The position numbers were made by a program, and so were the translations under genes. Under the pieces are notes generated by a model, which did not search any database, was not told the origin of the DNA, and was given only the letters and a program-made list of their open reading frames with translations. This document shows, piece by piece, positions 1 to 25,169 of a DNA stretch of 46,410 nt; position 1 is the first letter of the stretch; every line of letters begins with the position of its first letter. This stretch comes from a virus (Duplodnaviria > Heunggongvirae > Uroviricota > Caudoviricetes): positions 1 to 46,410 of the IMG/VR virus record IMGVR_UViG_2721755497_000002; one strand, 5' to 3'.

Positions 1-798
1 TTAATGAACATTCGTCGCCGAAAACGAGTCTGTATCATTAGTGCGATGCAGTCTCTGCAAAGGATCTTGTTGATAAAATTGGCAGAAACGTTGCCACAAT
101 GAAGGGAAACGAGGAGCAAAAAGTTCTGGGGCGCTAAAGAAATATTCAGAAAGTACGGCAAAACATTCAGCAGGATCACTGGCAGCATAAGCATCAATGC
201 TCGCCGCATTCTCGCCAACCAATTCGATTTCTTCCTGAATGTTGTTCATTGCAGCATGAAGATCGTGTTCCCAGCCAGCAACCTCACGCAACGGAATAAA
301 GGGAACTCCGCTGGCGCGATCGCCGTTACGGGTGTCCAGCTTATGAGCGACTTCATGAATAATCAGGTTAAAACCAGAAGCATCAAAAGAATCTTGTATA
401 TCCAACCAGTTCAAAACGATAGGCCCTTGCTGCCAGCTCTGACCTGACTGAACAATACGTTGGTTATGCACCAGACCGATATCGTCTTCCCATTCATCAT
501 CGACCACAAATGGCGCAGGATAAATTAAGACTTCATGAAAACCATCCAGCCATTCCAGTCCTAACTCCAGAACGGGTAGGCAAAATAGAAGTGCTATCCG
601 GCAGCTTCTTAATGAATCCAGTTCAAAGCCCTGTAAAGGAACAAGCCGCTTTTGCTGTAAAAAACGTTCGGCAAGAGTGACTAATTTGCTTTGTTCCTGT
701 TCCGTCAGACACGTTAAAAGGGGGATCGATAGTGCTTCCTGCCAGGGAAGGGCAGTTTGATGTGCTGATTCTTGTACTTTCCAGGGCCACTTAATCAT
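1..798 (-). CDS. mtfA: MtfA (Mlc titration factor A, zinc peptidase-like); host gene flanking the prophage
   Basis: ORF 1..837 minus; translation matches MtfA end to end; likely start at internal Met (MIKWPWK...) giving 265 aa; zinc-binding HEVAH motif present; stop at window position 1-3. Confidence 0.85.
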
Positions 799-891: not shown

Positions 892-981
892 GGAGAGATG
901 CCGGAGCGGCTGAACGGACCGGTCTCGAAAACCGGAGTGGGGGCAACTCCACCGGGGGTTCAAATCCCCCTCTCTCCGCCA
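892..981 (+). tRNA. serU: tRNA-Ser, anticodon CGA; prophage integration target
   Basis: 90-nt sequence GGAGAGATGCCGGAGCGGCTGAACGG...TTCAAATCCCCCTCTCTCCGCCA with long variable arm, anticodon loop CTCGAAA, 3' CCA; sits between mtfA and the phage integrase. Confidence 0.9.
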
Positions 982-2320: not shown

Positions 2321-4762
2321 TTAAAAATCAGCCTGACTCGGGATCAGTTTTTGCCAGATAGCTGAAACGTATTTTGCCTGGTAACGAGCGTCATCAAGTG
2401 CATTATGGCGCTCACCTTCGAATGGGATAGCAGTTCTGGCATCGAAGTCTATGGCTTTCCCCAGCTCAACGATTGTGCGTACATCGCGATCGTTGCAGTA
2501 GCGCCATGGGCAGGGGATACCCTGTCGTTCGTATGAACGGCGTAAAATCACGTTGTCGAAGTTGGCCCCATTACCCCAGACCTGAACAAAAAATTCACCG
2601 GAGTTTTCGTCGATAAATTCCCGCAATTGCAGTAGTGCATCATCTAACGGGATTTCATCGGTCATAATGGCAGACTGCGCTTCACGTGATTGCTTCAGCC
2701 ACCATTTAATGACGTCACGATCAATGACTCCGCCAGCAGTATCCAGATCGATGGTCTTGCTAAATTCCGGTCCCATATCTCCGGTTTGTGGATCGAAAAA
2801 TATTGCGCCTATTGAGATAATCGGGGCATCGGGATTTATTCCCATGGTTTCAAGGTCGATCATCAGATGAATCCCCGCTCTGCTGGTGGATGTGAGATTA
2901 TGATGACCGTTCGCCTTAATTAAGGGATCTGACGCCTCGCCAGTTTCACTATCGCTGGCATGATGCTGATTGCCGCCAGTGTTCTCCTTGTGCTGATGCG
3001 CAGTGCCTTCCATTTCCTCCGGATCATTTTCCTGAACTTCAGGCTGATTCTCTCCATCGAATATTTCCTGGTATGTTGCGTCACCCATCACCGCACCACA
3101 ATCAGGGCAGTTGCCGCCACCGCTATGACCGCAGGCGGTGCAGATCTTTTCCGGTTCCTGTTGCACTACTGGTTCAGGTTGTTTCGTTTCTGGCTCGTTT
3201 TGTTGCGTATTTGGGCTGTTTTGTTCCGCTTTCTGGTCGTTCTGTTCCGTTTCTTGCTGGTTCTGGTTCACAGAATCGCGAGTCTGGATCCCCTTGACCC
3301 ATTTCGGATCATTAGGGTCGCTAATCCCCTCAACAAATTCACCACGCGATACAGCAAGTAACTTATCGGCGTCAGGCTGGCTGATATTGGCTGCCTGCAT
3401 AATTTTGTTTACTTCGTCAGCGGTGACTTTTACCTGGTTAGCGGAACTCACCTGCGACTGAGCATCCAGCGACTGCGCGTTCTGGCAATGTTCAGTTGTA
3501 TCCGGTTCCATTGTTTCAGTTGTTGCCTGTTCACCTGCCATTGCGTCAGATGGTTGTGGTTTTTCTTCCTCTGTTTCACGTTCAGTAACCACCTCGCGGT
3601 TAATTTCTTCCAGGATATCTTTTTCCGGCGTATGCCGGGCAGCTGTGAGAGTTTCCTTGCTGGGGTTCTCGTGATCAGTTTCCGTCAAATAGGCGTTGAT
3701 ATACCCCTGAAGGCGTCCCGGGTAGTGATAAAATTCAGGGTGTGCGCTTCGGATAAGTGCAAAAATAGCGGCGCGGGAATAGTCCAGAATACCCGGGGTT
3801 GCACGAAGTGCTGAGGACCATTCTTTGAACGGACTTTCTTTTTTCAGGACTACTTCTTTTGCGCGACGATAAACGCTGCCCGGAATTTCATAAATATTAA
3901 AATCCATCGGAAGTGTGGCTGCTGCAATCTCCACATCCAGTGTGTCGAGGGTGTGTACTAAATTCGGATTGCGATCGGTTTTGTTCCCACCGCCAGCATT
4001 AGCACCGGAAGCCGTGCGGGTGATGCGTGAAACACGATTTCCTTTCATCCACTCTTTTGTCAGCAGACCCCGATCAATGTAGTCAGCGTCCAGGTATGCT
4101 TCGAAAAAAGCAGTTATTAGTCCCAGGTCTGAATTACCAGGATTAGGGAAAACTTTGTCAGTGTCACGAACCAGTTTGTGGAGGTCGCGAATCTCCAGCG
4201 AGTCGAGCAGACTGGTTTTATGCGAAATAGCCAGGGCAGTAACAGCCGGTAGTTCTTCAGCCCGTGCAATGTGTAATGCCTGGAGTTCGTCGCGTGAAAC
4301 GTGCGTTACTGGTTTTTCGCTGCCGTGTTGAGCAAGCCAACGAATGGGCAGTTCCTGACCGGAGACAGGCAGAAGCATGCTCTCCTCAATCTCAGTCATG
4401 TCTTCGCCGTTGATGTTGGTATTGTCAGTGCTGGCTGGTTTGTCCTGAACAGAGGGGGAAGGGCCGATAAATGTCATTGTGATGCCATCTTTCCCGCCTT
4501 TTTCATAGCGGTTGCAGAATTCAGTATCAAACACGCCTTCTGGCGGAAGGTCGTCAACAACGGGCAAATTGACGCGGACGGGTTTTTTAAAGTCGTCTTC
4601 ATCATAATCGTTGTCATCCATTGCGGTAATGCAGCGGGAGATTGCAACAGATAATTTTTTTGCTGTAGTCCAGTAAAAACCACCTTTAATTCCCAGGCGT
4701 TTTCTTACTTTGTCATTTTTTGCTTCGCAATATAGTGCAAATTCTTCTTTATCAGTGCTCAT
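2321..4762 (-). CDS. Large phage exonuclease: long acidic N-terminal region with a C4 zinc ribbon and a C-terminal DnaQ-like (DEDDh) 3'-5' exonuclease domain; the type often annotated exodeoxyribonuclease VIII-like in lambdoid prophages
   Basis: 813-aa ORF; C-terminal motifs IDLETMG (Exo I), WGNGANFD (Exo II), HNALDDARY (Exo III); zinc ribbon CTACGHSGGGNCPDCG. Confidence 0.75.
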   Translation of the reverse strand: MSTDKEEFALYCEAKNDKVRKRLGIKGGFYWTTAKKLSVAISRCITAMDDNDYDEDDFKKPVRVNLPVVDDLPPEGVFDTEFCNRYEKGGKDGITMTFIGPSPSVQDKPASTDNTNINGEDMTEIEESMLLPVSGQELPIRWLAQHGSEKPVTHVSRDELQALHIARAEELPAVTALAISHKTSLLDSLEIRDLHKLVRDTDKVFPNPGNSDLGLITAFFEAYLDADYIDRGLLTKEWMKGNRVSRITRTASGANAGGGNKTDRNPNLVHTLDTLDVEIAAATLPMDFNIYEIPGSVYRRAKEVVLKKESPFKEWSSALRATPGILDYSRAAIFALIRSAHPEFYHYPGRLQGYINAYLTETDHENPSKETLTAARHTPEKDILEEINREVVTERETEEEKPQPSDAMAGEQATTETMEPDTTEHCQNAQSLDAQSQVSSANQVKVTADEVNKIMQAANISQPDADKLLAVSRGEFVEGISDPNDPKWVKGIQTRDSVNQNQQETEQNDQKAEQNSPNTQQNEPETKQPEPVVQQEPEKICTACGHSGGGNCPDCGAVMGDATYQEIFDGENQPEVQENDPEEMEGTAHQHKENTGGNQHHASDSETGEASDPLIKANGHHNLTSTSRAGIHLMIDLETMGINPDAPIISIGAIFFDPQTGDMGPEFSKTIDLDTAGGVIDRDVIKWWLKQSREAQSAIMTDEIPLDDALLQLREFIDENSGEFFVQVWGNGANFDNVILRRSYERQGIPCPWRYCNDRDVRTIVELGKAIDFDARTAIPFEGERHNALDDARYQAKYVSAIWQKLIPSQADF

Positions 4763-5406: not shown

Positions 5407-5459
5407 GGGCGGCAGAGCAGTCACGGAGTAAAACTGATACCGCCAAACGTCACCAGAAA
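5407..5459 (-). ncRNA. dicF: DicF small RNA (Hfq-dependent, represses ftsZ)
   Basis: Reverse complement reads TTTCTGGTGACGTTTGGCGGTATCAGTTTTACTCCGTGACTGCTCTGCCGCCC followed by a U-tract; lies between ydfC and dicB as in Qin. Confidence 0.8.
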
Positions 5460-7582: not shown

Positions 7583-7885
7583 ATGACATTAAAAGAGTTT
7601 ATTAAATCATTGAGGGTTGGTGATGCTAAGAAATTCGCGGCCAGACTTGGTGTATCGCCATCTTACTTATCGCAAATGGCGTCTGGACGAGCAGCTATAT
7701 CTCCAACCCGCGCCCTTATGATCGAATCTGCTACGGAAGGCCAAGTAAGTAGGGCGGAGCTACGACCCCATGATTGGGAACTTATTTGGCCTGAGTATGC
7801 GAGCGGCATTCGTTTGGGGCAAACGCATGTAGTTCATGCTGAAGGTGATTGTAGTGCATGCTTATCTGATGGAGTTGATTCATGA
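7583..7885 (+). CDS. Cro-like HTH regulator (YdaS family)
   Basis: 100-aa ORF; HTH motif AARLGVSPSYLSQMASGRAAIS; first gene of the rightward early operon. Confidence 0.7.
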   Translation: MTLKEFIKSLRVGDAKKFAARLGVSPSYLSQMASGRAAISPTRALMIESATEGQVSRAELRPHDWELIWPEYASGIRLGQTHVVHAEGDCSACLSDGVDS

Positions 7886-8307
7886 AAATCAAGCATGAGC
7901 ATATTCGCATGGCGATGAATGCCTGGGCGCGTCCGGATGGTGAAAAAGTTCCGGTAGCCGAGATAACCAGGGTTTATTTCGAGCTGGGCATGACGTTTCC
8001 TGAGCTGTATGACGACAGCCATCCGGAAGCCCTGGCCCGTAATACCCAGAAAATTTTCCGCTGGGTGGAGAAAGACACCCCTGATGCGGTTGAAAAAATT
8101 CAGGCGTTACTGCCAGCGATCGAAAAGGCAATGCCGCCTTTGCTGGTGGCCAGAATGCGTAGTCACAGCTCAGCCTATTTCAGGGAGCTGCTGGAGACAC
8201 GAGAACGGCTGGTGAGAGACGCTGATGATTTTATCGCAGTGGCAATCGCCGGTTTCAATCAGATGAACCGTGGTGGCCCTGCAGGAAATATTGTGGCTGT
8301 GCATTGA
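7882..8307 (+). CDS. YdaT-family protein (CII-like functional analogue)
   Basis: 141-aa ORF overlapping the cro-like stop; size and position match Rac YdaT. Confidence 0.6.
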   Translation: MKIKHEHIRMAMNAWARPDGEKVPVAEITRVYFELGMTFPELYDDSHPEALARNTQKIFRWVEKDTPDAVEKIQALLPAIEKAMPPLLVARMRSHSSAYFRELLETRERLVRDADDFIAVAIAGFNQMNRGGPAGNIVAVH

Positions 8308-13821: not shown

Positions 13822-14088
13822 TTTTATACCTTTTGTGTTGTGTGAACGATGAGTATAGTCAGAAATGAGACTGTGAAGGGGGATAGAAAATAATAGTTTG
13901 TTTTTGTAGAATCGCTGCGGGTGCTTGGGGCTATCTGTCTCAGGCATGAACACCAAAAGGCAGATAGAGAAAAGCCCCAGTTAACATTACGCGTCCGGCA
14001 AGACGCTTAACATTAATCTGAGGCCATATCTATGACTTGCACGCGTAGGTTAGCCTCTTACGTGCCGAAAGGCAAGGAGAAGCAGGCT

Positions 14089-14244
14089 ATGAAGCAGCAA
14101 AAGGCGATGTTAATCGCCCTGATCGTCATCTGTTTAACCGTCATAGTGACGGCACTGGTAACGAGGAAAGACCTCTGCGAGGTACGAATCCGAACCGGCC
14201 AGACGGAGGTCGCTGTCTTCACAGTCTACGAACCTGAGGAGTAA
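14089..14244 (+). CDS. hokD: Hok/Gef-family type I toxin
   Basis: Internal Met of ORF 14032..14244 gives MKQQKAMLIALIVICLTVIVTALVTRKDLCEVRIRTGQTEVAVFTVYEPEE, a near match to HokD/RelF as recalled; upstream in-frame extension is consistent with a mok-like leader. Confidence 0.8.
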   Translation: MKQQKAMLIALIVICLTVIVTALVTRKDLCEVRIRTGQTEVAVFTVYEPEE

Positions 14245-18243: not shown

Positions 18244-18319
18244 GGCCCTTTAGCTCAGTGGTGAGAGCGAGCGACTCATAATCGCCAGGTCGCTGGTTCA
18301 AATCCAGCAAGGGCCACCA
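18244..18319 (+). tRNA. tRNA with CAU anticodon (Met or lysidine-dependent Ile2; ileZ-like phage tRNA)
   Basis: 76 nt GGCCCTTTAGCTCAGTGGTGAGAGC...ACTCATAATCG...GGTTCAAATCCAGCAAGGGCCACCA; canonical cloverleaf. Confidence 0.8.
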
Positions 18320-18326
18320 TCTCATA

Positions 18327-18403
18327 CCGCCATTAGCTCATCGGGACAGAGCGCCAGCCTTCGAAGCTGGCGGCGCGGGGTTCGGGTCCTCGATGGCGGT
18401 CCA
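18327..18403 (+). tRNA. tRNA-Arg, anticodon UCG (argN-like phage tRNA)
   Basis: 77 nt; acceptor CCGCCAT/ATGGCGG, anticodon loop CTTCGAA, T-arm CGGGG-TTCGGGT-CCTCG, CCA end. Confidence 0.75.
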
Positions 18404-19104: not shown

Positions 19105-19304
19105 TTCTACATCTTTGCAGTAAACAATAATCATAATTGCATGTTTTTTCTGTGGTGGGGCATTTGGCTTCTGTTGCCTGCGATGTATTGTGGACCTGGT
19201 ATCAGCCTGCAGAAAATGCACACAGGTGTGAAGTGTTAAATTCCTCACAACTCAGAACGCAGAATGTTGTCCTGCTTGCGGGGAATTTGTTAAAAGAGTA
19301 CAGC

Positions 19305-19423
19305 ATGGTGAATCCCCCTGAGCGGAGGGGCATAATGACAGATGTTTGGTCGTGTTATCGTATAGGCAAGTTGCGGATTCTGTCTGGTCATTGCAGAATT
19401 CACCGGGAGGCACCCGGCACCAT
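19305..19423. repeat. Repeat unit copy 1 (about 119 bp): ATGGTGAATCCCCCTGAGCGGAGGGGC ... CACCGGGAGGCACCCGGCACCAT with two GC-rich hairpins
   Basis: Termini shared with copy 2 and mutually reverse-complementary (ATGGTG / CACCAT). Confidence 0.45.
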
Positions 19424-19558
19424 GTATTTTCAATATGTTATTGATCATTCTCTTTTTCGGAATACTCTGGTTATGTTTTCCTGTAACTGATAATTAAATC
19501 ACATTTTGTGTAACTGCATATTGTCTGAACGGGATAAGTTTCAGTATCTTCTGAATGT

Positions 19559-19678
19559 ATGGCGAATCCCCCTGTGCGGCGGGGCGTACTGATTTAAGTA
19601 GTCATCCAAGAATGCAGCTGAATGAAAACGCGCTCCATATTAATCAGTGGTGGAGCACCGGGAGGCACCCGGCGCCAT
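19559..19678. repeat. Repeat unit copy 2 (about 120 bp): ATGGCGAATCCCCCTGTGCGGCGGGGC ... CACCGGGAGGCACCCGGCGCCAT
   Basis: Same terminal hairpin modules as copy 1, divergent interior. Confidence 0.45.
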
Positions 19679-19707
19679 ACCGATGATGAAAGTAAATGCG
19701 TCCATCC

Positions 19708-19732
19708 GCCCCTCTCCGGAGGGGCTTTTTTA
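19708..19732 (+). terminator. Strong rho-independent terminator (GCCCCTCtccgGAGGGGC + TTTTTT) upstream of nanS-p
   Basis: 7-bp GC stem, 4-nt loop, T-tract. Confidence 0.6.
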
Positions 19733-19913
19733 TGGGCAAAAAAAGCCCGCTACGAATGGTAACGGGCTGCACAAAATAACAAAATGTGAAGTATTCTAAT
19801 CAGCCGCTGAATAATACCCGACAGTAATTAATCTGTGCAACGGTGCTTTTTCCCGCCTTGCAGGCACCGACTCTCTCATTTGATTTAACGCATTATCCCG
19901 TCCGGGAGGATTC

Positions 19914-21857
19914 ATGACATTTAAATATTATGATGTGGTTTCGGCCAGAACAACTGATGAATTAAAGCGGAAACTGAACGAAAAAATCCGTGAAGGATGG
20001 CAGCCTTATGGAACAATATCTGTTTCATCTGTGAGTGGTACTGAAGACATATATCATCAGCCAGTTGCTGCTGAGGGGGAGGTGAGTACGCCGGTGATAC
20101 GTCCTGATGCCGGTGATGATTCATCTGTGGCCGTCTCCGGATCGCCTGATTATTACTACGTGGTGGTACTGGCGGGGCAGTCAAATGGCATGGCCTATGG
20201 TGAAGGGTTTCCGTTACCGGATTCATTTGACCGCCCGGACCCACGGATTAAGCAACTGGCACGCCGCAGCACGGTCACGCCAGGTGGTACGCCGTGTAAA
20301 TACAATGACATCATTCCGGCAGACCACTGCCTGCATGATGTGCAGGACATGAGCGGGATAAACCACCCAAAAGCTGACCTGAACAAGGGGCAGTATGGTT
20401 GTGTGAGTCAGGGGCTGCATATTGCCAAAAAACTGCTGCCTTATATCCCGCAGAATGCCGGGATACTTCTGGTGCCCTGTTGCCGTGGCGGGTCAGCATT
20501 CACCACCGGGCCGGACGGTTCATTCAGTGAGGCCAGCGGTGCTTCCGCTGATTCTTCACGCTGGGGAGTCGGTAAACCTCTGTATCAGGACCTGGTAAGC
20601 CGCACCAAAGTCGCGCTGGCGAAGAACCCGAAAAACAAACTTCTGGCTGTGGTCTGGATGCAGGGAGAGGCAGACCTTGCATCGGGAAGTCAGCAGCATA
20701 ATGGTTTATTCACTGCCATGGTTCAGCAGTTCAGAGCCGACCTGTCTCCGCTTGCTGCGCAGTGCGTGAGTGGAAATGCTGGCACGGTACCGTGGATTTG
20801 TGGTGATACCACGTATTACTGGAAAAACGCTGGCACCGATAAATATGAGGCGGTATACGGTGGCTACAAAGGCAAGGAAACTCAGAATATTTTCTTTGTA
20901 CCGTTCCTGACGGATGAGAATGGACAGAACACGCCAACGAATGCTCCGACGGAAGATCCGGATATTGTGGCTGTCGGGTATTACGGTGCGGCATCCCGTA
21001 CCCAGGGCAGTTTTGTCTCGACACAGCGTGACAGCCATTTCAGTTCATGGGCACGCAGGGGCATCATTTCTGACCGTCTGGCCTCCTCTATTCTGCTCCA
21101 TGCAGGGCGCACGGCTGAACTGCTGGGCGGGCAGGCCGTGACACCACCGGATGAGAAGCCATCACCTGACACTCCATCAACATCACCGGGTGAAACTACC
21201 GGGATGACAACACTGTTTGCATACAGGGCCAGCGATTCGGAAGGACAACTGACTCCACAGGGCTGGGGGGCTGGCGGAGGTAGTGCCGCTGTTGTGGATG
21301 ATGCCGGAGCCAGTGGAGGTAAGGCGATGAAGCTTACCAAAGCGACGGGAAAATCCTCCTGGTACCTGGAACATGATGCCGGTAATGGTGCCGACCTGCT
21401 GGGCAAAGGCGGCCTTGTCAGTTGTCGTTTTAAACTTGATGGCGCGCTTACGGCTAATCAGTACGCACTGGCGCTGTACTGGCCGGTTTCTGCCCTGCCA
21501 CAAGGGGTTACCCTGGAAGGTAATGCTGGTCATAACCTGCTGGCATCTTTTTACGTTCAGAGCGATGCGACAGACCTTAACGTGATGTACCACAAGGGCG
21601 ATACGGCGCAAAACATGAAACTGGGGTCATTCGGTGCATTTGACAACGAGTGGCATACGTTGGGCTTCCGTTTCGCCGGTAACAACAGTATTGAGGTGAC
21701 GCCGGTCATTGATGGTCAGGACGGGACGCCGTTCATGCTGTCGCAGTTACCTGTCGGTTCTTTTGCGGCAGACAAGTTGCGCGTGACCGATATTACCAGT
21801 GCAGCAACGTATCCGGTGCTGATTGACAGCATAGTGGTGGAAGTGAATAACGCGTAA
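19914..21857 (+). CDS. nanS: NanS-p-type sialate O-acetylesterase (DUF1737 N-domain + SGNH/SASA esterase domain)
   Basis: 647 aa; N-terminus MTFKYYDVVSARTTDELKRKLNEKIREGWQPYGTISVSS (DUF1737-like); GQSN motif (VLAGQSNGMAYGEG); position between tRNAs and lysis genes as in EHEC prophages. Confidence 0.8.
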   Translation: MTFKYYDVVSARTTDELKRKLNEKIREGWQPYGTISVSSVSGTEDIYHQPVAAEGEVSTPVIRPDAGDDSSVAVSGSPDYYYVVVLAGQSNGMAYGEGFPLPDSFDRPDPRIKQLARRSTVTPGGTPCKYNDIIPADHCLHDVQDMSGINHPKADLNKGQYGCVSQGLHIAKKLLPYIPQNAGILLVPCCRGGSAFTTGPDGSFSEASGASADSSRWGVGKPLYQDLVSRTKVALAKNPKNKLLAVVWMQGEADLASGSQQHNGLFTAMVQQFRADLSPLAAQCVSGNAGTVPWICGDTTYYWKNAGTDKYEAVYGGYKGKETQNIFFVPFLTDENGQNTPTNAPTEDPDIVAVGYYGAASRTQGSFVSTQRDSHFSSWARRGIISDRLASSILLHAGRTAELLGGQAVTPPDEKPSPDTPSTSPGETTGMTTLFAYRASDSEGQLTPQGWGAGGGSAAVVDDAGASGGKAMKLTKATGKSSWYLEHDAGNGADLLGKGGLVSCRFKLDGALTANQYALALYWPVSALPQGVTLEGNAGHNLLASFYVQSDATDLNVMYHKGDTAQNMKLGSFGAFDNEWHTLGFRFAGNNSIEVTPVIDGQDGTPFMLSQLPVGSFAADKLRVTDITSAATYPVLIDSIVVEVNNA

Positions 21858-21988
21858 GCAGGACAAAAAAATGCCGCCGGGAAAGGGAAAACAAGGAAAC
21901 CGGCGGCAAAGGTCGTCACATCTAAAGCAAAAATGCAGGACGCCTTTTTAACCAACAGGTATTAACGATGTCAACACCATGTCGATAA

Positions 21989-22177
21989 TTGGGAGGGATA
22001 ATGACATTTTTACAGCTTATTTTATTGTATTTCTGTACGGCGGTGTGTGCACTGTATCTGGTGAGTGGTGGGTACAAAATTATACGCAACTACATCCGTA
22101 AAAAGATTGATGCCATGGCGGCTGAAAAAATCAGTGCCGGTCAGTCAGCAGAGCCAAAGTCCACGTCCCTCCCGTAA
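21989..22177 (+). CDS. Hypothetical small membrane protein
   Basis: 62-aa ORF with hydrophobic N-terminus FLQLILLYFCTAVCALYLV. Confidence 0.35.
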   Translation: MGGIMTFLQLILLYFCTAVCALYLVSGGYKIIRNYIRKKIDAMAAEKISAGQSAEPKSTSLP

Positions 22178-22202
22178 TCACATCTCACAGCGAGAAAAAA
22201 CC

Positions 22203-22508
22203 ATGACAGAAATGAAAAAACTGGTCACTGCTGATGCAGTGAAGTCAGCGCTGCGCACTGAAGAAGTCCGCGGGACGCTGAAAGCATCTATCCGTAAAAC
22301 GTTTGAGGCTCAGATTGATGCGGATGTGGAAGCGATTCTGGATGAGCTTATCGGACCTGCTGAGGGGGCATCTGCGCCACAGGTAGGGGATGGTGAGAAT
22401 ACAGCAGACTCTCCGGTGGAAAACAGCAGCGAACAACCTGAGGCACAACCCGCTGCTGGAGAACAACCAGCTGATGTACTGCAGCCTGAACCAGCGACCA
22501 TGCTGTGA
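22203..22508 (+). CDS. Hypothetical acidic protein upstream of holin
   Basis: Internal Met ([14 protein letters not shown]...) of ORF 22065..22508; about 101 aa. Confidence 0.45.
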
Positions 22509-22585
22509 TACATGACGCACAGGCCACCAGCATATCGCGGTGGTCTTTTATTATCGTGCGCTTCCGGTTAACGGGAGGCGGGGAT

Positions 22586-22801
22586 ATGTACCAGATGGAA
22601 AAAATCACAACAGGTGTGTCATACACCACGTCTGCGGTGGGGACGGGATACTGGTTTCTGCAGTTGCTGGACAGGGTATCCCCGTCTCAGTGGGCGGCAA
22701 TAGGCGTGCTGGGGAGTCTGCTGTTTGGTCTGCTGACGTACCTGACCAACCTGTATTTTAAAATCAGAGAGGACCGGCGCAAGGCGGCGCGGGGAGAATG
22801 A
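22586..22801 (+). CDS. Holin, phage 21 S21-like pinholin with dual-start motif
   Basis: 71 aa [26 protein letters not shown]...[22 protein letters not shown] resembles S21; GGGAGG Shine-Dalgarno; two Met within first four codons. Confidence 0.8.
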
Positions 22802-22805
22802 ACTG

Positions 22806-23339
22806 GTGAGTAAAAAACTCCGCTACGGTTTATCTGCGATCGTTCTGGCGCTGATTGCCACAGGTGCTTCTGCGCCTGAAATCCTTGACCAGTTTCTGGA
22901 TGAAAAGGAAGGTAACCACACCACGGCATACCGTGATGGCGCGGGTATCTGGACTGTCTGCCGGGGAGCCACTCGGGTGGATGGCAGACCTGTAGTTCCC
23001 GGTATGAAGCTGACGAAGGAAAAATGCGCTCAGGTTAATGCCATTGAACGGGATAAGGCACTGGCATGGGTGGAGAAAAATATCAGAGTGCCACTGACCG
23101 AACCGCAGAAAGCGGGGATAGCGTCATTCTGCCCGTACAACATTGGTCCCGGTAAGTGTTTTCCGTCGACGTTTTATAAACGAATTAATGCAGGTGATCG
23201 AAAAGGTGCCTGTGAGGCGATTCGCTGGTGGATTAAGGATGGTGGCAGAGACTGCCGTATTCGCTCAAACAACTGCTACGGTCAGGTGTCCCGTCGTGAC
23301 CAGGAGAGCGCGCTGGCGTGCTGGGGAATCGACAGATAA
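22806..23339 (+). CDS. SAR endolysin (T4 lysozyme-like muramidase with N-terminal signal-anchor-release domain)
   Basis: 177 aa; GTG start; N-terminal Gly/Ala-rich hydrophobic SAR segment LSAIVLALIATGASA; resembles phage 21 R21. Confidence 0.85.
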   Translation: MSKKLRYGLSAIVLALIATGASAPEILDQFLDEKEGNHTTAYRDGAGIWTVCRGATRVDGRPVVPGMKLTKEKCAQVNAIERDKALAWVEKNIRVPLTEPQKAGIASFCPYNIGPGKCFPSTFYKRINAGDRKGACEAIRWWIKDGGRDCRIRSNNCYGQVSRRDQESALACWGIDR

Positions 23340-23430
23340 GCAGAATATTTTGCTGAAAAATGCCGTTTGCTCACGCGGGTGGATAACACGATATTCTGCG
23401 AACTGGCAAAAGGTAAGTGAATAAAAGTAA

Positions 23431-23462
23431 AAACCCCGTTTGTTGGCTGCAAGCGGGGTTTT
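23431..23462 (+). terminator. Hairpin AAACCCCG...CGGGGTTT with T-tract inside the lysis cassette (candidate terminator/attenuator)
   Basis: GC stem with long loop followed by TTTTG. Confidence 0.35.
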
Positions 23463-23498
23463 GTGTTTCCTGACTCCGGAAAAGTCAAAGGAGAAAGT

Positions 23499-23636
23499 GT
23501 GTTTGATTTTAGCAAACTGATTCGGGAGATTCGAGTGATGGCTGAAAAATTATCCACCTGGAAGTTCATCCTTATCTGGCTGGTGTTTGTGATTATGGCC
23601 TCCGGTTATTTCATCGGTCAGATACGCTGGTGGTGA
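23499..23636 (+). CDS. Possible small membrane protein between endolysin and Rz (45 aa, [45 protein letters not shown])
   Basis: GTG start 5 nt after AGGAG; stop 1 nt before Rz ATG; one predicted TM helix; not in ORF track. Confidence 0.35.
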
Positions 23637-23637
23637 A

Positions 23638-24105
23638 ATGAACCGCGTTCTGTGTGTGATCATCATTGCCCTGCTGGTGGCCTGTGGTGTGCTGTGGGTG
23701 GCAACAGACTATTACCGCGATAATGCCATCACCTACAAGGCGCAGCGCGATAAAAAAGCCAGGGAGCTGCGGCTGGCAAACGCAACCATTACTGACATGC
23801 AGCAGCGTCAGCGTGATGTTGCTGCACTCGATGCAAAATACACAAAGGAGTTAGCCGATGCGAGAGCTGAAAATGAAACTCTGCGCGTTGATGTTGCCGC
23901 TGGTCGTAAGCGCCTGCGGGTCAACGCCACCTGTGTGTCCGCCACAGACAAAAACACCAGAACCGCCAGCGTGGATAATGCAGCCCGCCCCAGACTGGCA
24001 GACGCCGCTGAACGGAATTATTTCACTCTCAGCGACCGGCTGATGACGATGCAGAAGCAGCTGGAAGGGGCGCAGGAATATATCCGCGCTCAGTGCCTGA
24101 AATAA
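23638..24105 (+). CDS. Rz i-spanin
   Basis: 155 aa; N-terminal TM helix, coiled-coil-rich periplasmic domain; Rz1 embedded in +1 frame. Confidence 0.8.
23873..24043 (+). CDS. Rz1 o-spanin lipoprotein (embedded in Rz)
   Basis: Internal Met of ORF 23858..24043: [32 protein letters not shown]... lipobox VVSAC, proline-rich. Confidence 0.7.
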
Positions 24106-25169
24106 GTTTTGCTGATGCGCAGTATCGTCGCCGTATTCCCGCATTAACAGAGACCGCAGCCCTTGCGGGATACTCCTCTGCGCGAGTGTGCGGGAATAAT
24201 CAGAAACGATGCACGCCGGGTTTTGCAGCGCGAACTGAACGGGGCGCGGATTGTACCCTCATAATCGCCCATCCGGTGCGATGGTGGAAGAAACCGGAAT
24301 GATGAATTGTGAATGCAAAATATGGTTCTGCATTGAATAATACTGGCATTGTTTCCTGTTTACATCCAGAACATATTTAAATATGCCTGCCTGGGACAGA
24401 GTAAGATGGCTACGGAAAAAAGGTATGCTACCGGATAAATGTTTTTTGATAACCAGTTTTGTCCAGATATTGTTTGATCTGTGGTTTATATAAACTGGTC
24501 TTTTTTGGGTCTGTACCGTGATCATACTATGGTTATGTGTGGTAAACCGTATATTTCCTGTAGACAGGAAATAAAAACAATGCGAGATATCATTTTTTTT
24601 AAGATAGTCAGTGACGGAAATAATATCGCTATTGTGTGATGAAATAAGCAAGGATATAACAGAGCTAAGCCGGTTGTTCTCTGTGGTGACACAATCTGGT
24701 GGCGATAAATCAGAATGCGTGATGTAAAGATTAAGCATGTAAAACCATGGTGTTTAACTGAAGGTTACTGTGCGGCGGGAAAATAATGAAGTGAAAAGGT
24801 AATGTCTATTTGTTATTTTCGCATGATAAAGCAGAGGTATTATTTTTTTTGCTAATTTATTCTTTTGATATATCTTATCTGTATTTGTGGTTGATTGTAA
24901 ACCACTATTGCAACTGACATCGTCAGCAATGTTGCATACTCATTCAGGTACAACATGGCGTGGAAGAAAGAATGCAGGTATCAAGATATTTGAGTGGATG
25001 ATAAAAAAAGCCGCAGGTGGTATGCGGCATGAAATGGCACGAATTAGTGGATGTATCTTTTCTCGTTTGTATTTTTATCTTATTTCCTGAGGTGTAATCA
25101 ATTCGAAAAATACGTGAGAACAGAGCGTGTATTTTCGACCTTTTTATGGGTCCTCCTGGTGGGGTGGCC

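What the first reader, a model, noticed from the sequence alone, without database searches (positions are those of the whole stretch)
23340..23637. Unannotated insert between endolysin and Rz: hairpin plus a 45-aa membrane ORF
Lysis cassettes usually have R directly followed by Rz. Here about 300 bp intervene, containing a terminator-like hairpin (about 23431-23462) and a small ORF with a good Shine-Dalgarno whose stop is 1 nt from the Rz start ([45 protein letters not shown], one TM helix). It could be an extra lysis regulator (antiholin or spanin-associated) or a small moron.
Basis: seen in the sequence. Interest (0 to 1): 0.4.

Follow-up and report, generated by a model that had tools for sequence, protein, structure and literature searches.

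The report
Mobile small membrane-peptide cassette before Rz
The gap between the phage endolysin and Rz genes holds a real, conserved 45-residue membrane-peptide gene that moves between phages as a roughly 215-bp unit with two RNA hairpins and a probable antisense promoter; its function is unknown and it is not specific to lysis genes.

Summary
A strong hairpin with a T-run lies at 23430-23462. A GTG-initiated 45-codon ORF (23499-23636) stops 1 nt before the Rz ATG.

The ORF is a real gene. It matches phrog_6632 (unknown function) over its full length. dN/dS is 0.09-0.25 against homologues from Salmonella, Citrobacter, Edwardsiella, Yersinia, Klebsiella and a GC-rich phage group. About 870 of 5426 complete E. 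coli genomes carry the whole segment.

It is not a dedicated lysis regulator. The unit (hairpin 1, hairpin 2 with the SD, ORF) occurs with at least five endolysin types and at least three i-spanin families. It also sits between tail spike V and baseplate W, after siphovirus tail genes, and before an SLT virion protein. Empty sites show the flanking genes overlapping.

Both hairpins covary. Synonymous sites in codons 3-12 are frozen and read, on the minus strand, as an extended -10 promoter (TGCTAAAAT) aimed at the hairpin.

My best reading is a promoter-less, moron-like late-gene cassette for a small inner-membrane peptide. It is probably guarded by a roughly 80-nt cis-antisense RNA, as in type I toxin-antitoxin systems. 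The peptide's function, the antisense RNA and the use of the internal start are all inferred.

The parts
22586..22801 (+). Context: P21-type class II holin (pinholin-like S)
   Evidence: Pfam PF04971, E 9e-33
22806..23339 (+). Context: endolysin R, with a signal-anchor-like N-terminus
   Evidence: Pfam PF00959, E 1.3e-24; ORF list
23340..23429 (.). Non-coding 3' flank linked to the R gene, not part of the mobile cassette. It contains the conserved motifs CTGAAAAATG and GGATAACAC. Its function is unknown.
   Evidence: Query positions 1-86/95 are shared at 84-92% identity with 933W-type phages, which then diverge into ant. About 2000 E. coli genomes match this part. It is absent from cassettes in other contexts. 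Substitutions are not codon-like.
23430..23462 (.). Hairpin 1: G+C-rich stem with an A-tract 5' (from about 23425) and a T-run 3' (to about 23472). It is a bidirectional intrinsic-terminator-like element and marks the 5' edge of the cassette.
   Evidence: Terminator scan. 8 of 13 pairs show compensatory changes. It scores as a minus-strand terminator in L013 and L118. T-runs are present on both strands.
23466..23494 (.). Hairpin 2, overlapping the Shine-Dalgarno sequence (AAGGAG, 23488-23493) of the ORF
   Evidence: Folds. 5 of 10 pairs show compensatory changes. Inner-stem variants are CCTTG/CAAGG, CGTTA/TAACG, CCTG/CAGG, CATG/CATG and GACT/AGTC. SD sequestration is not better than in shuffled controls.
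23499..23636 (+). 45-codon ORF with a GTG start. It encodes a small bitopic inner-membrane peptide (cytoplasmic amphipathic helix 4-17, TM helix 20-44, C-terminal IRWW). It belongs to phrog_6632.
   Evidence: phrog_6632, E 1.2e-29. dN/dS is 0.09-0.25. The start is GTG or TTG in 16 of 17 lineages. AlphaFold2 model. Hydropathy.
23524..23540 (+). Internal SD-like GGGAG (23524-23528) plus the invariant ATG of Met14 (23538-23540). This is a possible second start giving a 32-residue form.
   Evidence: R9 is always NGG, E10 is always GAG and Met14 is invariant. The Serratia copy keeps only the 32-residue form. GC-rich relatives keep GAGGTG-N6-ATG. Use of this start is inferred only.
23506..23514 (-). 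Extended -10 promoter-like motif TGCTAAAAT on the minus strand, embedded in codons 3-6. A weak -35 (TCGAAT/CTCGAA) lies at 23529-23535.
   Evidence: Synonymous sites are frozen: diversity 0.15 in codons 3-12 against 0.51 in codons 15-45, p = 5e-4. The motif is kept in 17 of 17 lineages, including a GC-rich one. The promoter scan finds the equivalent site as the only promoter in L131, L125 and L006. One occurrence alone is not significant.
23422..23500 (-). Predicted cis-antisense RNA of about 80 nt. It would have a CU-rich anti-SD 5' end, the reverse complement of hairpin 2, then hairpin 1 as terminator with tail UUUUUACUUUUAUU.
   Evidence: Inferred from the promoter motif and the minus-strand terminator. 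It folds at -21.8 kcal/mol, z = -3.4. No transcript data were available.
23638..24105 (+). Context: i-spanin Rz. The o-spanin Rz1 is embedded at 23858-24043. The Rz SD-like GGTGGTGA is formed by the WW-stop codons of the ORF.
   Evidence: Pfam PF03245 and PF06085; sequence

Best explanation
Positions 23425-23636 are one copy of a mobile, promoter-less late-gene cassette that resembles a moron. It consists of a bidirectional terminator-like hairpin, a second conserved hairpin carrying the SD, and a weak-start (GTG) gene for a 45-residue inner-membrane peptide.

Peptide layout: N-terminus in the cytoplasm, an amphipathic helix, one TM helix, and a C-terminal IRWW at the periplasmic face.

Shown:
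- The gene is real and under purifying selection.
- The two hairpins covary.
- The unit is inserted exactly between genes that overlap in empty sites.
- It occurs in unrelated lysis cassettes and in tail, baseplate and virion operons.

Inferred:
- No plus-strand promoter was detected between 22400 and the ORF, and a terminator lies upstream. The peptide would therefore be made only from read-through transcripts, meaning Q-antiterminated late transcription in this lambdoid prophage.
- Its stop lies 1 nt before the Rz ATG, and its WW-stop codons form the Rz SD. Its translation would therefore hand ribosomes on to Rz, restoring the coupling that the insertion broke.
- A conserved minus-strand extended -10 promoter inside codons 3-6 would drive an antisense RNA of about 80 nt. 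This RNA would cover the SD and start codon and end at the same hairpin, silencing leaky expression in lysogens as in type I toxin-antitoxin systems (SymR/SymE-like geometry).
- The peptide would act through the inner membrane on a host or general target late in infection, for example as a membrane-perturbing helper of lysis timing. It would not act through a specific holin, endolysin or spanin partner.

My sub-confidences are: real gene 0.95; mobile cassette with a conserved RNA leader 0.9; late-only expression by read-through 0.6; antisense RNA 0.55; membrane-toxic or lysis-assisting role 0.3.
For: Gene is real:
- Full-length match to phrog_6632.
- dN/dS is 0.09-0.25 with near-saturated synonymous change in the C-terminal half. 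I42 uses ATA/ATC/ATT and R43 uses CGC/CGT/CGG/AGA.
- Homologues occur across Enterobacterales and in a GC-rich phage group.

Cassette and mobility:
- The covariance model of the leader hits every locus.
- Covariation: 94.8% of cells paired against 84.4% in shuffles; 13 pairs with double changes against 6.4; 0 of 500 shuffles reach the observed values; slid controls score 0.075 or less.
- Empty against filled site: V/W overlap as TAATG in E. coli G3/10, against a 229-nt insert in L111. rrrQ and rzpQ overlap in K-12.
- Contexts are varied.

Read-through and coupling:
- No plus-strand promoter is found in 22400-24400, and there is a terminator at 23430-23462.
- The stop-to-start spacing is 1-8 nt in most loci.

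Antisense promoter:
- Synonymous sites are frozen in codons 3-6 and 10-12, with free sites between them. This matches a -10 / 17-18 nt spacer / -35 layout.
- TGnTAAnAT is kept in 17 of 17 lineages. This includes L118, where S5 has become I, and GC-rich L131, which still uses GAT TTT AGC.
- The scan tool reports the equivalent minus-strand site as the sole promoter in L131, L125 and L006.
- A minus-strand U-run is always present, and it is the only U-run in L118.

Precedents:
- SymR/SymE geometry (from my own knowledge).
- hokW-sokW assists Sp5 lysis (PMC8621323).
- IsrK-orf45-anrP uses terminator read-through and uORF coupling (PMC4825925).
Against: - There are no transcript, ribosome-profiling or phenotype data for any member. 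No paper contains the peptide.
- The -35 in the window and in enterobacterial copies is poor (3/6 or less), so the scan tool does not call a promoter there. TGNTAANAT alone occurs 8 times in the window against 5.1 expected.
- The frozen codons could instead reflect the internal SD/ATG and constraints on the translation-initiation region.
- SD sequestration by hairpin 2 is no better than composition predicts.
- G-U asymmetry does not show which strand's RNA is structured.
- Coupling is not universal: L142 ends at a terminator, and L119 has a 22-nt gap.
- Whether the non-lambdoid hosts of the cassette use antitermination was not checked.
- Toxicity is assumed from size and hydrophobicity only.
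Confidence: 0.55

Rival explanations
1. It is a dedicated lysis-cassette regulator. The peptide would bind the pinholin, the SAR endolysin or the Rz TM domain and tune lysis timing, acting as an antiholin, a releasin-like factor or a spanin partner.
For: - In most E. coli, Salmonella and Citrobacter copies it sits between endolysin and i-spanin, with its stop abutting the spanin start.
- It may have two starts, like holin/antiholin pairs.
- It has a conserved GxxxG-like G36xxxG40 in the TM helix.
- Other small TM ORF families share the same slot, and some share the C-terminal RWW.
Against: - The partners are not conserved. It occurs with at least 3 holin types, at least 5 endolysin types (including non-SAR GH19, GH108 and M15) and at least 3 spanin families.
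- The same protein family lies between spike V and baseplate W, after tail L/K/I genes, and before an SLT virion protein.
- There is no Pfam holin or DUF2730 match.
- Mu releasin is 99 aa, N-out, with a 73-aa cytoplasmic domain.
Confidence: 0.15
2. The payload is the minus-strand small RNA. It would be a classical moron (promoter, RNA, terminator) expressed in lysogens and acting in trans through its CU-rich 5' end. The plus-strand ORF would be secondary.
For: - The leader (both hairpins) is the most widely shared piece. It precedes three different ORF families (A, C, D) and occurs twice in L013.
- Each such ORF carries a minus-strand promoter-like site aimed at the leader.
- The minus-strand RNA has a typical sRNA shape, with fold z = -3.4.
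Against: - The ORF itself is under strong protein-level selection along its whole length, including far from the promoter.
- There is no Rfam family here.
- There is no expression evidence.
- The Pas and EcOnc sRNA papers do not place an sRNA in this gap.
Confidence: 0.12
3. It is a translational adaptor or leader peptide. The ORF would exist only to deliver ribosomes to the downstream gene after the insertion broke coupling, or it would stall at IRWW-stop to set Rz translation, in a register like SecM or TnaC.
For: - The stop lies 1-8 nt from the next start in most loci, and the WW-stop codons encode GGTGGTGA, an SD for the next gene.
- IR lies at -3/-2 from the last residue, as I162-R163 does in SecM (from my own knowledge).
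- In the IsrK locus, a 45-codon uORF works this way.
Against: - dN/dS is 0.1-0.25 over the N-terminal helix and the TM segment, so peptide sequence matters beyond the last four residues.
- By contrast, the IsrK orf45 is conserved in nucleotides but not in amino acids.
- Some members lack RWW (AIKG, PWDRLLG ends) or lack a coupled downstream gene.
Confidence: 0.08
4. It is a lysogenic-conversion or superinfection-exclusion moron expressed from the prophage, in the manner of HK97 gp15.
For: - It is a small inner-membrane protein inserted between tail or lysis genes, as morons are.
- It is widespread in prophages.
Against: - No plus-strand promoter was detected between the upstream gene and the ORF in the window.
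- A terminator lies directly upstream, the start codon is weak, and a probable antisense promoter opposes it.
- There is no PADLOC match.
Confidence: 0.08
5. It is a chance ORF or decaying remnant with no function.
For: - It is often unannotated.
- Frameshifted or truncated copies exist, for example P0025, P0027 and P0034.
Against: - Purifying selection.
- Conservation across genera and contexts.
- A PHROG family exists for it.
- The leader covaries.
Confidence: 0.02

Closest known systems
Phage morons (Juhala/Hendrix definition; e.g. HK97 gp15, lambda bor and lom)
   Same: It is a discrete accessory unit inserted exactly between two genes that are adjacent or overlapping in related phages. 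It encodes a small membrane protein, carries an intrinsic terminator, and moves between unrelated phage backgrounds.
   Different: The classical moron has its own promoter upstream and a terminator downstream, and is expressed from the prophage. Here the terminator is upstream of the ORF and no plus-strand promoter is detected. The only promoter-like element faces the opposite way.
Type I toxin-antitoxin modules with 5'-overlapping antisense RNA (SymE/SymR geometry; Hok/Sok; hokW-sokW of Sp5)
   Same: It encodes a small hydrophobic single-TM peptide. A predicted antisense RNA of about 80 nt has its promoter inside the first codons of the ORF and covers the SD and start codon. Initiation is weak and the leader is structured. 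There is prophage precedent for such a toxin helping lysis.
   Different: There is no toxin-side promoter, no demonstrated toxicity and no demonstrated RNA. There is no sequence relation to Hok, Ldr, TisB, Ibs, Sho, Zor or DinQ. No Rfam antitoxin RNA is found here, although a true sok lies elsewhere in the window at 13919-14094.
IsrK-orf45-anrP locus of Salmonella Gifsy-1 (PMC4825925)
   Same: It lies in a lambdoid prophage. A Rho-independent terminator is read through into a 45-codon upstream ORF with two in-frame starts. That ORF's stop abuts or overlaps the next gene's start and couples its translation.
   Different: There is no homology: Rfam isrK is not detected. IsrK's orf45 is conserved in nucleotides but not in amino acids, whereas this ORF is conserved as a protein with a TM helix. 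No upstream sRNA promoter is found here. The downstream gene is a spanin or baseplate gene, not an antirepressor.
Holin/antiholin dual-start genes (lambda S107/S105; phage 21 S71/S68)
   Same: It is a small membrane protein in a lysis cassette with two possible in-frame starts, giving forms that differ by a charged N-terminal extension.
   Different: The starts are 13 codons apart, not 2-3. It has one TM helix of a 45-aa protein. There is no holin Pfam hit. It coexists with a bona fide holin and is also found outside lysis cassettes.
Mu gp25 releasin (DUF2730)
   Same: It is a single-pass membrane protein encoded next to a SAR endolysin.
   Different: gp25 is 99 aa, N-out/C-in, with a 73-aa acidic cytoplasmic domain. 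There is no DUF2730 match. This peptide also accompanies non-SAR endolysins.

Membership tests
PHROG 6632 (phage protein family, unknown function) | Full-length HMM match | tested here: met
   E 1.2e-29, residues 1-45 against profile positions 1-45 of 45. The SPN3UB homologue scores 3.9e-23.
Moron | Inserted between two genes that are adjacent in related phages | tested here: met
   V/W overlap as TAATG in L117 against a 229-nt insert in L111. rrrQ and rzpQ overlap in K-12 Qin.
Moron | Own sigma-70 promoter upstream of the gene | tested here: not met
   No plus-strand promoter-like site in 22400-24400. Only about 35 nt separate hairpin 1 from the start codon.
Moron | Factor-independent terminator downstream of the gene | tested here: not met
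   The terminator-like hairpin is upstream. A downstream terminator was seen only in L142.
Type I toxin-antitoxin | Small hydrophobic membrane peptide under 60 aa | tested here: met
   45 aa; the 19-residue window 24-42 has a Kyte-Doolittle mean of 2.13; TM helix 20-44 in the model.
Type I toxin-antitoxin | Antisense RNA gene overlapping the toxin mRNA | tested here: inconclusive
   A conserved minus-strand extended -10, a minus-strand terminator and frozen synonymous sites are present. No transcript data exist, and the -35 is weak in the window.
Type I toxin-antitoxin | Toxicity of the peptide, neutralised by the RNA | not testable with these tools
   This needs expression assays.
Holin / antiholin | Match to a holin family, or being the sole membrane lesion-former of the cassette | tested here: not met
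   No Pfam holin hit at E up to 1. A P21-type holin is already present at 22586-22801.
Holin / antiholin | Constant association with a lysis cassette | tested here: not met
   Also found in baseplate, tail and virion-protein operons.
Releasin (DUF2730) | DUF2730 domain with N-out TM and a cytoplasmic domain of about 70 aa | tested here: not met
   No DUF2730 hit. The charge distribution predicts the opposite topology. The definition comes from PMC9239132.
IsrK-type sRNA/uORF switch | IsrK RNA (Rfam isrK) upstream of the uORF | tested here: not met
   No isrK hit in the window or in related loci.
IsrK-type sRNA/uORF switch | uORF stop abutting the next start, giving translational coupling | tested here: met
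   The geometry is TGA-A-ATG. Coupling itself was not tested.
Spanin (Rz/Rz1) | Periplasmic coiled-coil domain or lipobox | tested here: not met
   Only about 3 residues lie beyond the TM helix and there is no lipobox. The true Rz and Rz1 follow.

The most novel reading that the evidence does not exclude
The cassette, together with the C and D small-ORF cassettes that share its leader, would be a new family of type-I-toxin-antitoxin-like modules domesticated by phages.

- The product is a membrane peptide with no promoter of its own, so its synthesis depends on terminator-resistant late transcription.
- It would be kept silent in lysogens by an antisense RNA of about 80 nt. That RNA's promoter is written into the synonymous sites of the peptide's first codons, and it shares a bidirectional terminator with the peptide gene.
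- Arrays of such cassettes fill the endolysin-spanin junction, with up to four in tandem. They spread by inserting at translationally coupled gene junctions, which they re-couple through their WW-stop/SD ends.
- They would act as lysis-timing or membrane-collapse helpers.
Probability: 0.25. Interest if true: 0.65.

Novelty: new member of a known kind. Interest (0 to 1): 0.42.

Why it matters
- **Prevalence.** About one in six complete E. coli genomes, including many Stx1a and Stx2c phages and H-19B, carry this exact segment in their lysis cassette. About 37% carry part of the same filled gap. No member has been studied, and many annotations skip it.
- **Lysis model.** If the peptide affects the membrane late in infection, it would add an accessory layer to the textbook holin-endolysin-spanin scheme. 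In Stx phages it could also influence the timing of toxin and phage release.
- **Method.** The antisense-promoter reading shows how a regulatory signal can be hidden in the synonymous sites of a 45-codon gene.
- **Annotation.** The leader covariance model gives a handle for finding more such cassettes.
- **If only the core holds.** The result is still a useful correction: a real small gene, a mobile unit, and not a lysis-specific factor.

Tried and rejected
**Database and literature searches that found nothing useful**
- Rfam, at gathering and at E-value thresholds, on the region and on related loci: nothing above chance.
- Pfam, NCBIfam, PADLOC and PDB sequence searches of the peptide: no hits.
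- Literature: no paper contains the peptide.
- The phrase 'between R and Rz' gave nothing relevant.
- The EHEC Hfq-CLIP paper and its supplements, and the Pas sRNA preprint, do not place an sRNA in this gap.
- The spanin census paper does not discuss intervening genes.

**Structural and sequence ideas that did not hold up**
- SD sequestration by hairpin 2: predicted in most sequences, but not better than shuffled pyrimidine-rich leaders (mean 0.64 against 0.59). I dropped it as evidence.
- Using G-U asymmetry to decide which strand's RNA is structured: inconclusive.
- A minus-strand promoter at 23621-23592 found by the scan: it is not conserved in SPN3UB, so I rejected it.
- An 8-codon mini-ORF and an in-frame extension of R within the 90-nt flank: substitutions are not codon-like, so I rejected both.
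- Homology between the ORF45 family and the 37-aa AIRWW family: only the last 14 columns align (probability 60%), so it is not established.
- RNAalifold on ungapped or MAFFT alignments missed hairpin 2 because loop lengths differ. A hand-annotated covariance model solved this.

**Other**
- Sakai Sp15 was checked as a possible source of published transcript data. It has the 933W-type ant insert and no ORF45.
Full report
**1. What is in the window**

The finding sits in a phage 21/H-19B-type lysis cassette.
- P21-type holin: 22586-22801, PF04971.
- Endolysin R: 22806-23339, PF00959.
- A 298-nt gap.
- Rz: 23638-24105, PF03245, with Rz1 embedded at 23858-24043.

The gap has three parts.
- (a) 23340-23429.
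- (b) A G+C-rich hairpin at 23430-23462, flanked by an A-tract and a T-run. It is the best terminator-like site in the 2-kb region.
- (c) After a second small hairpin and an AAGGAG Shine-Dalgarno sequence, a GTG-initiated 45-codon ORF at 23499-23636. Its TGA stop is 1 nt from the Rz ATG.

The peptide has one clear hydrophobic span. AlphaFold2 models it as helix 4-17, a kink at L-S/P, then helix 20-44, at pLDDT 83. Net charge is +2 on the N-terminal side, which predicts N-in/C-out. Only R-W-W would lie at the periplasmic face.

**2. Is the ORF a gene?**

Yes.
- It matches phrog_6632, a 45-position family of unknown function, end to end at E 1e-29. It matches nothing in Pfam, NCBIfam, PADLOC or the PDB.
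- The 298-nt segment is 93-100% identical in about 870 of 5426 complete E. coli genomes. It is also present in H-19B, CP-1639, TL-2011c and many Stx1a, Stx2c and Stx2a phages.
- Annotation is inconsistent. There is none in E. coli M3 (100% identical) or in H-19B. Elsewhere it is called 'hypothetical' or 'putative bacteriophage protein'.
- Protein homologues at 57-87% identity occur in Salmonella, Citrobacter, Enterobacter, Klebsiella, Edwardsiella, Yersinia, Serratia, Izhakiella, Sodalis and Trabulsiella.
- A full scan of 1.84 billion representatives finds only 51 clusters. All are 24-86 aa and none is fused to a larger protein.
- Against ten divergent homologues, dN/dS is 0.09-0.25, with synonymous sites near saturation in the C-terminal half. 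Ile42 uses all three of its codons and Arg43 uses four.
- The start codon is GTG or TTG in 16 of 17 lineages.

**3. It is a mobile cassette, not a lysis-specific gene**

The ORF always travels with the two hairpins. A covariance model of the 81-nt leader hits every locus at 41-102 bits.

On the model-based alignment of 29 sequences:
- 94.8% of cells are paired, against 84.4% in shuffles.
- 13 of 23 pairs show double-sided changes, against 6.4 in shuffles.
- The covariation score is 0.288, against 0.099 in shuffles and 0.075 or less with slid partners.
- No shuffle out of 500 reaches the observed values.
- The caveat is that the alignment was fitted to the model.

The neighbours vary freely.
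- Holins: P21-type, holin_2_3, holin_8 plus holin_3_7.
- Endolysins: PF00959, GH19, GH108, peptidase M15_4 and a 138-aa type.
- i-spanins: PF03245, DUF2514 and DUF2570/LysC.

The same family is also found in other operons.
- Between tail spike V and the sheath initiator/baseplate W, in E. coli, Klebsiella, Yersinia and Serratia.
- After lambda-like tail genes L/K/I, in a GC-rich phage group.
- Before an SLT-domain virion protein.

Empty sites exist. In E. coli G3/10, V and W overlap as TAATG. In L111, a 229-nt cassette sits exactly between V's stop and W's ATG. In K-12 Qin, rrrQ and rzpQ overlap.

The cassette therefore inserts at translationally coupled junctions of late operons. In most copies it ends 1-8 nt before the next start, and its TGG-TGG-TGA codons provide a GGTGGTGA Shine-Dalgarno sequence for that gene.

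This excludes a partner-specific antiholin, releasin or spanin-associated role. Mu's releasin is a 99-aa N-out DUF2730 protein and shares neither domain nor topology with this peptide.

**4. The first 90 nt are a separate piece**

Positions 23340 to about 23429 are linked to the R gene. They are shared at 84-92% identity with 933W-type phages, which then diverge into the ant insert. They are also present in about 2000 E. coli genomes. They are absent from cassettes in other contexts.

Substitutions in this stretch are not codon-like, and no Rfam family matches. I could not assign it a function.

**5. The R-Rz gap is a mosaic hot-spot**

Related prophages carry other small single-TM ORFs in the same slot.
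- B: MSDKLITL..., phrog_4906. This includes 933W and Sakai ECs_5741.
- C: ...RALAFAIKWVAVG...LKS.
- D: MKGIEVE...AIRWW, phrog_4493, present in more than 1000 contigs.
- One genome has A, B, C and D in tandem.

The C and D ORFs, and a second ORF in E. fergusonii, are preceded by the same two-hairpin leader. Families A and D share only the last 14 or so residues, ending in IRWW (hhalign probability 60%). Homology between them is not established.

**6. A signal hidden in the synonymous sites**

Synonymous-codon diversity is 0.15 in codons 3-12, against 0.51 in codons 15-45 (Mann-Whitney p = 5e-4). Seven of those ten codons never vary: GAT, xTT, AGC, AAA, GAG, TTG and CGA. Codons 7-9 between them vary freely.

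Read on the minus strand, the two frozen blocks are TCGCA(A/C) and TG-n-TAA-n-AT, 17-18 nt apart. This is a weak -35 plus an extended -10.
- The only variable -10 position is position 4.
- The motif survives in L118, where Ser5 has become Ile (TGATAAAAT).
- It survives in the GC-rich L131 group, which still uses GAT TTT AGC and CGA.
- The promoter-scan tool reports this site as the only sigma-70-like promoter in the L131 region: TTCGCA-18-TAAAAT with TG, against 0.0 expected.
- It reports equivalent minus-strand sites as the only promoters in the C-type region (TAGTCA-18-TATACT) and the D-type region (TGGACA-18-TATACT, 10/12).

A transcript from this promoter would start at about the ORF's start codon. 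It would run through the complement of the SD and hairpin 2, and end at hairpin 1.
- Hairpin 1 has a U-run on the minus strand in every lineage (UUUUUACUUUUAUU in the window).
- In L118 the minus-strand U-run is the only one.
- The predicted RNA of about 80 nt folds at z = -3.4.

This geometry is that of SymR/SymE and other type I antitoxin RNAs (from my own knowledge).

Caveats:
- In the window and in enterobacterial copies the -35 matches only 3/6 or less, so the scan does not call a promoter there.
- The 9-mer alone is not rare: 8 occurrences against 5.1 expected.
- Part of the frozen block, (C/A)GG GAG ... ATG, is equally well explained by an internal Shine-Dalgarno for the invariant Met14.
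- The Serratia copy retains only that 32-residue form, and GC-rich relatives keep GAGGTG-N6-ATG.
- Both signals may coexist.
- Hairpin 2 pairs with the SD in most predicted folds, but not more than shuffled U/C-rich leaders do. I do not count that as evidence.
- Which strand's RNA the covariation serves could not be resolved.

**7. Most likely mechanism**

Shown:
- A real gene for a bitopic inner-membrane peptide.
- A covarying two-hairpin leader.
- Insertion at overlapping-gene junctions.
- Independence from any particular lysis protein.

Inferred:
- No plus-strand promoter was detected, and there is a terminator immediately upstream. The peptide would therefore be made from read-through, Q-antiterminated late transcripts.
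- Its translation would be handed on to Rz.
- A constitutive antisense RNA would keep leaky expression off in lysogens.
- The peptide, probably in two forms, would act on the membrane late in infection.

Two prophage precedents exist. hokW-sokW assists Sp5 lysis and phage release (PMC8621323). In Gifsy-1, a read-through terminator, a 45-codon two-start uORF and translational coupling control anrP (PMC4825925). Neither is homologous to this locus.

**8. Novelty and verdict**

The gene family already exists in databases as an uncharacterised PHROG, so the gene itself is not new. No function, transcript or paper was found for it.

New here:
- The definition of the cassette.
- The covarying leader shared by several small-ORF families.
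- The empty-site evidence.
- The exclusion of a lysis-specific role.
- The antisense-promoter reading.

I class it as a new member of a known kind: a moron-like accessory small membrane protein. There is a 25% chance that it is a new type-I-TA-like variant. Interest is moderate at 0.42. The cassette is widespread and untested, and it sits in medically relevant Stx phages, but its function is unknown and the most interesting part rests on comparative inference only.

Noticed in passing
L129 701-1345; L125 857-1185; L006 2182-2334; L005 (933W) about 3350-3485; L124 (Sakai) 7749-7895: The endolysin-Rz gap of E. coli lambdoid prophages holds at least three further families of small single-TM ORFs. 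These are B (MSDKLITL..., phrog_4906, Sakai ECs_5741), C (...AFAIKWVAVG...LKS) and D (MKGIEVE...AIRWW, phrog_4493, more than 1000 contigs). Up to four occur in tandem, and all are of unknown function.
   Followed up: partly
L013 3677-3757 and 3925-4003: E. fergusonii carries two copies of the two-hairpin leader in tandem, each followed by a different small TM ORF. Between them lies a truncated Rz start (TGGTGGTGATATGTCCCGGGTAA). This suggests that cassettes stack by recombination at the WW-stop/ATG junction.
   Followed up: partly
window 23340-23429: A 90-nt non-coding flank of the R gene is conserved in about 2000 E. coli genomes and in Salmonella phages. Its conserved motifs are CTGAAAAATG and GGATAACAC. 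The window copy has a perfect 9-bp inverted repeat (GCAGAATAT at 23340-48 and ATATTCTGC at 23391-99) that is not conserved elsewhere. Its function is unknown.
   Followed up: partly
window 13919-14094 (+): Rfam sok antitoxin RNA (111 bits). This indicates a hok/sok-type type I TA module elsewhere in the same prophage.
   Followed up: no
window 19274-19478 and 19529-19737 (+): Two tandem STnc100 sRNA matches (119 and 98 bits) lie upstream of the 647-aa esterase-like ORF.
   Followed up: no
window 5407-5458 (-): DicF antisense sRNA match (77 bits).
   Followed up: no
window 18244-18400 (+) and 892-978 (+): Phage-borne tRNA genes: two adjacent ones downstream of the Q region, and one near the window start.
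   Followed up: no
window 19914-21857 (+) and 21860-22580: A 647-aa YjhS/NanS-like sialate esterase ORF is followed by about 700 nt before the holin. A 2026 preprint places the prophage sRNAs PasA, PasC and PasD in this esterase-holin interval. I did not check whether this window has one.
   Followed up: no
window 24259-24738 (-): An AT-rich 159-aa ORF lies on the opposite strand just downstream of Rz, where bor sits in lambda and 933W. It could be another moron.
   Followed up: no
L106 1477-2617; L108 760-1485: In E. coli prophages carrying the P0036 variant, enterotoxin-like ADP-ribosyltransferase genes (Enterotoxin_a/Pertussis_S1, LT-IIB) lie within or next to the lysis cassette.
   Followed up: no
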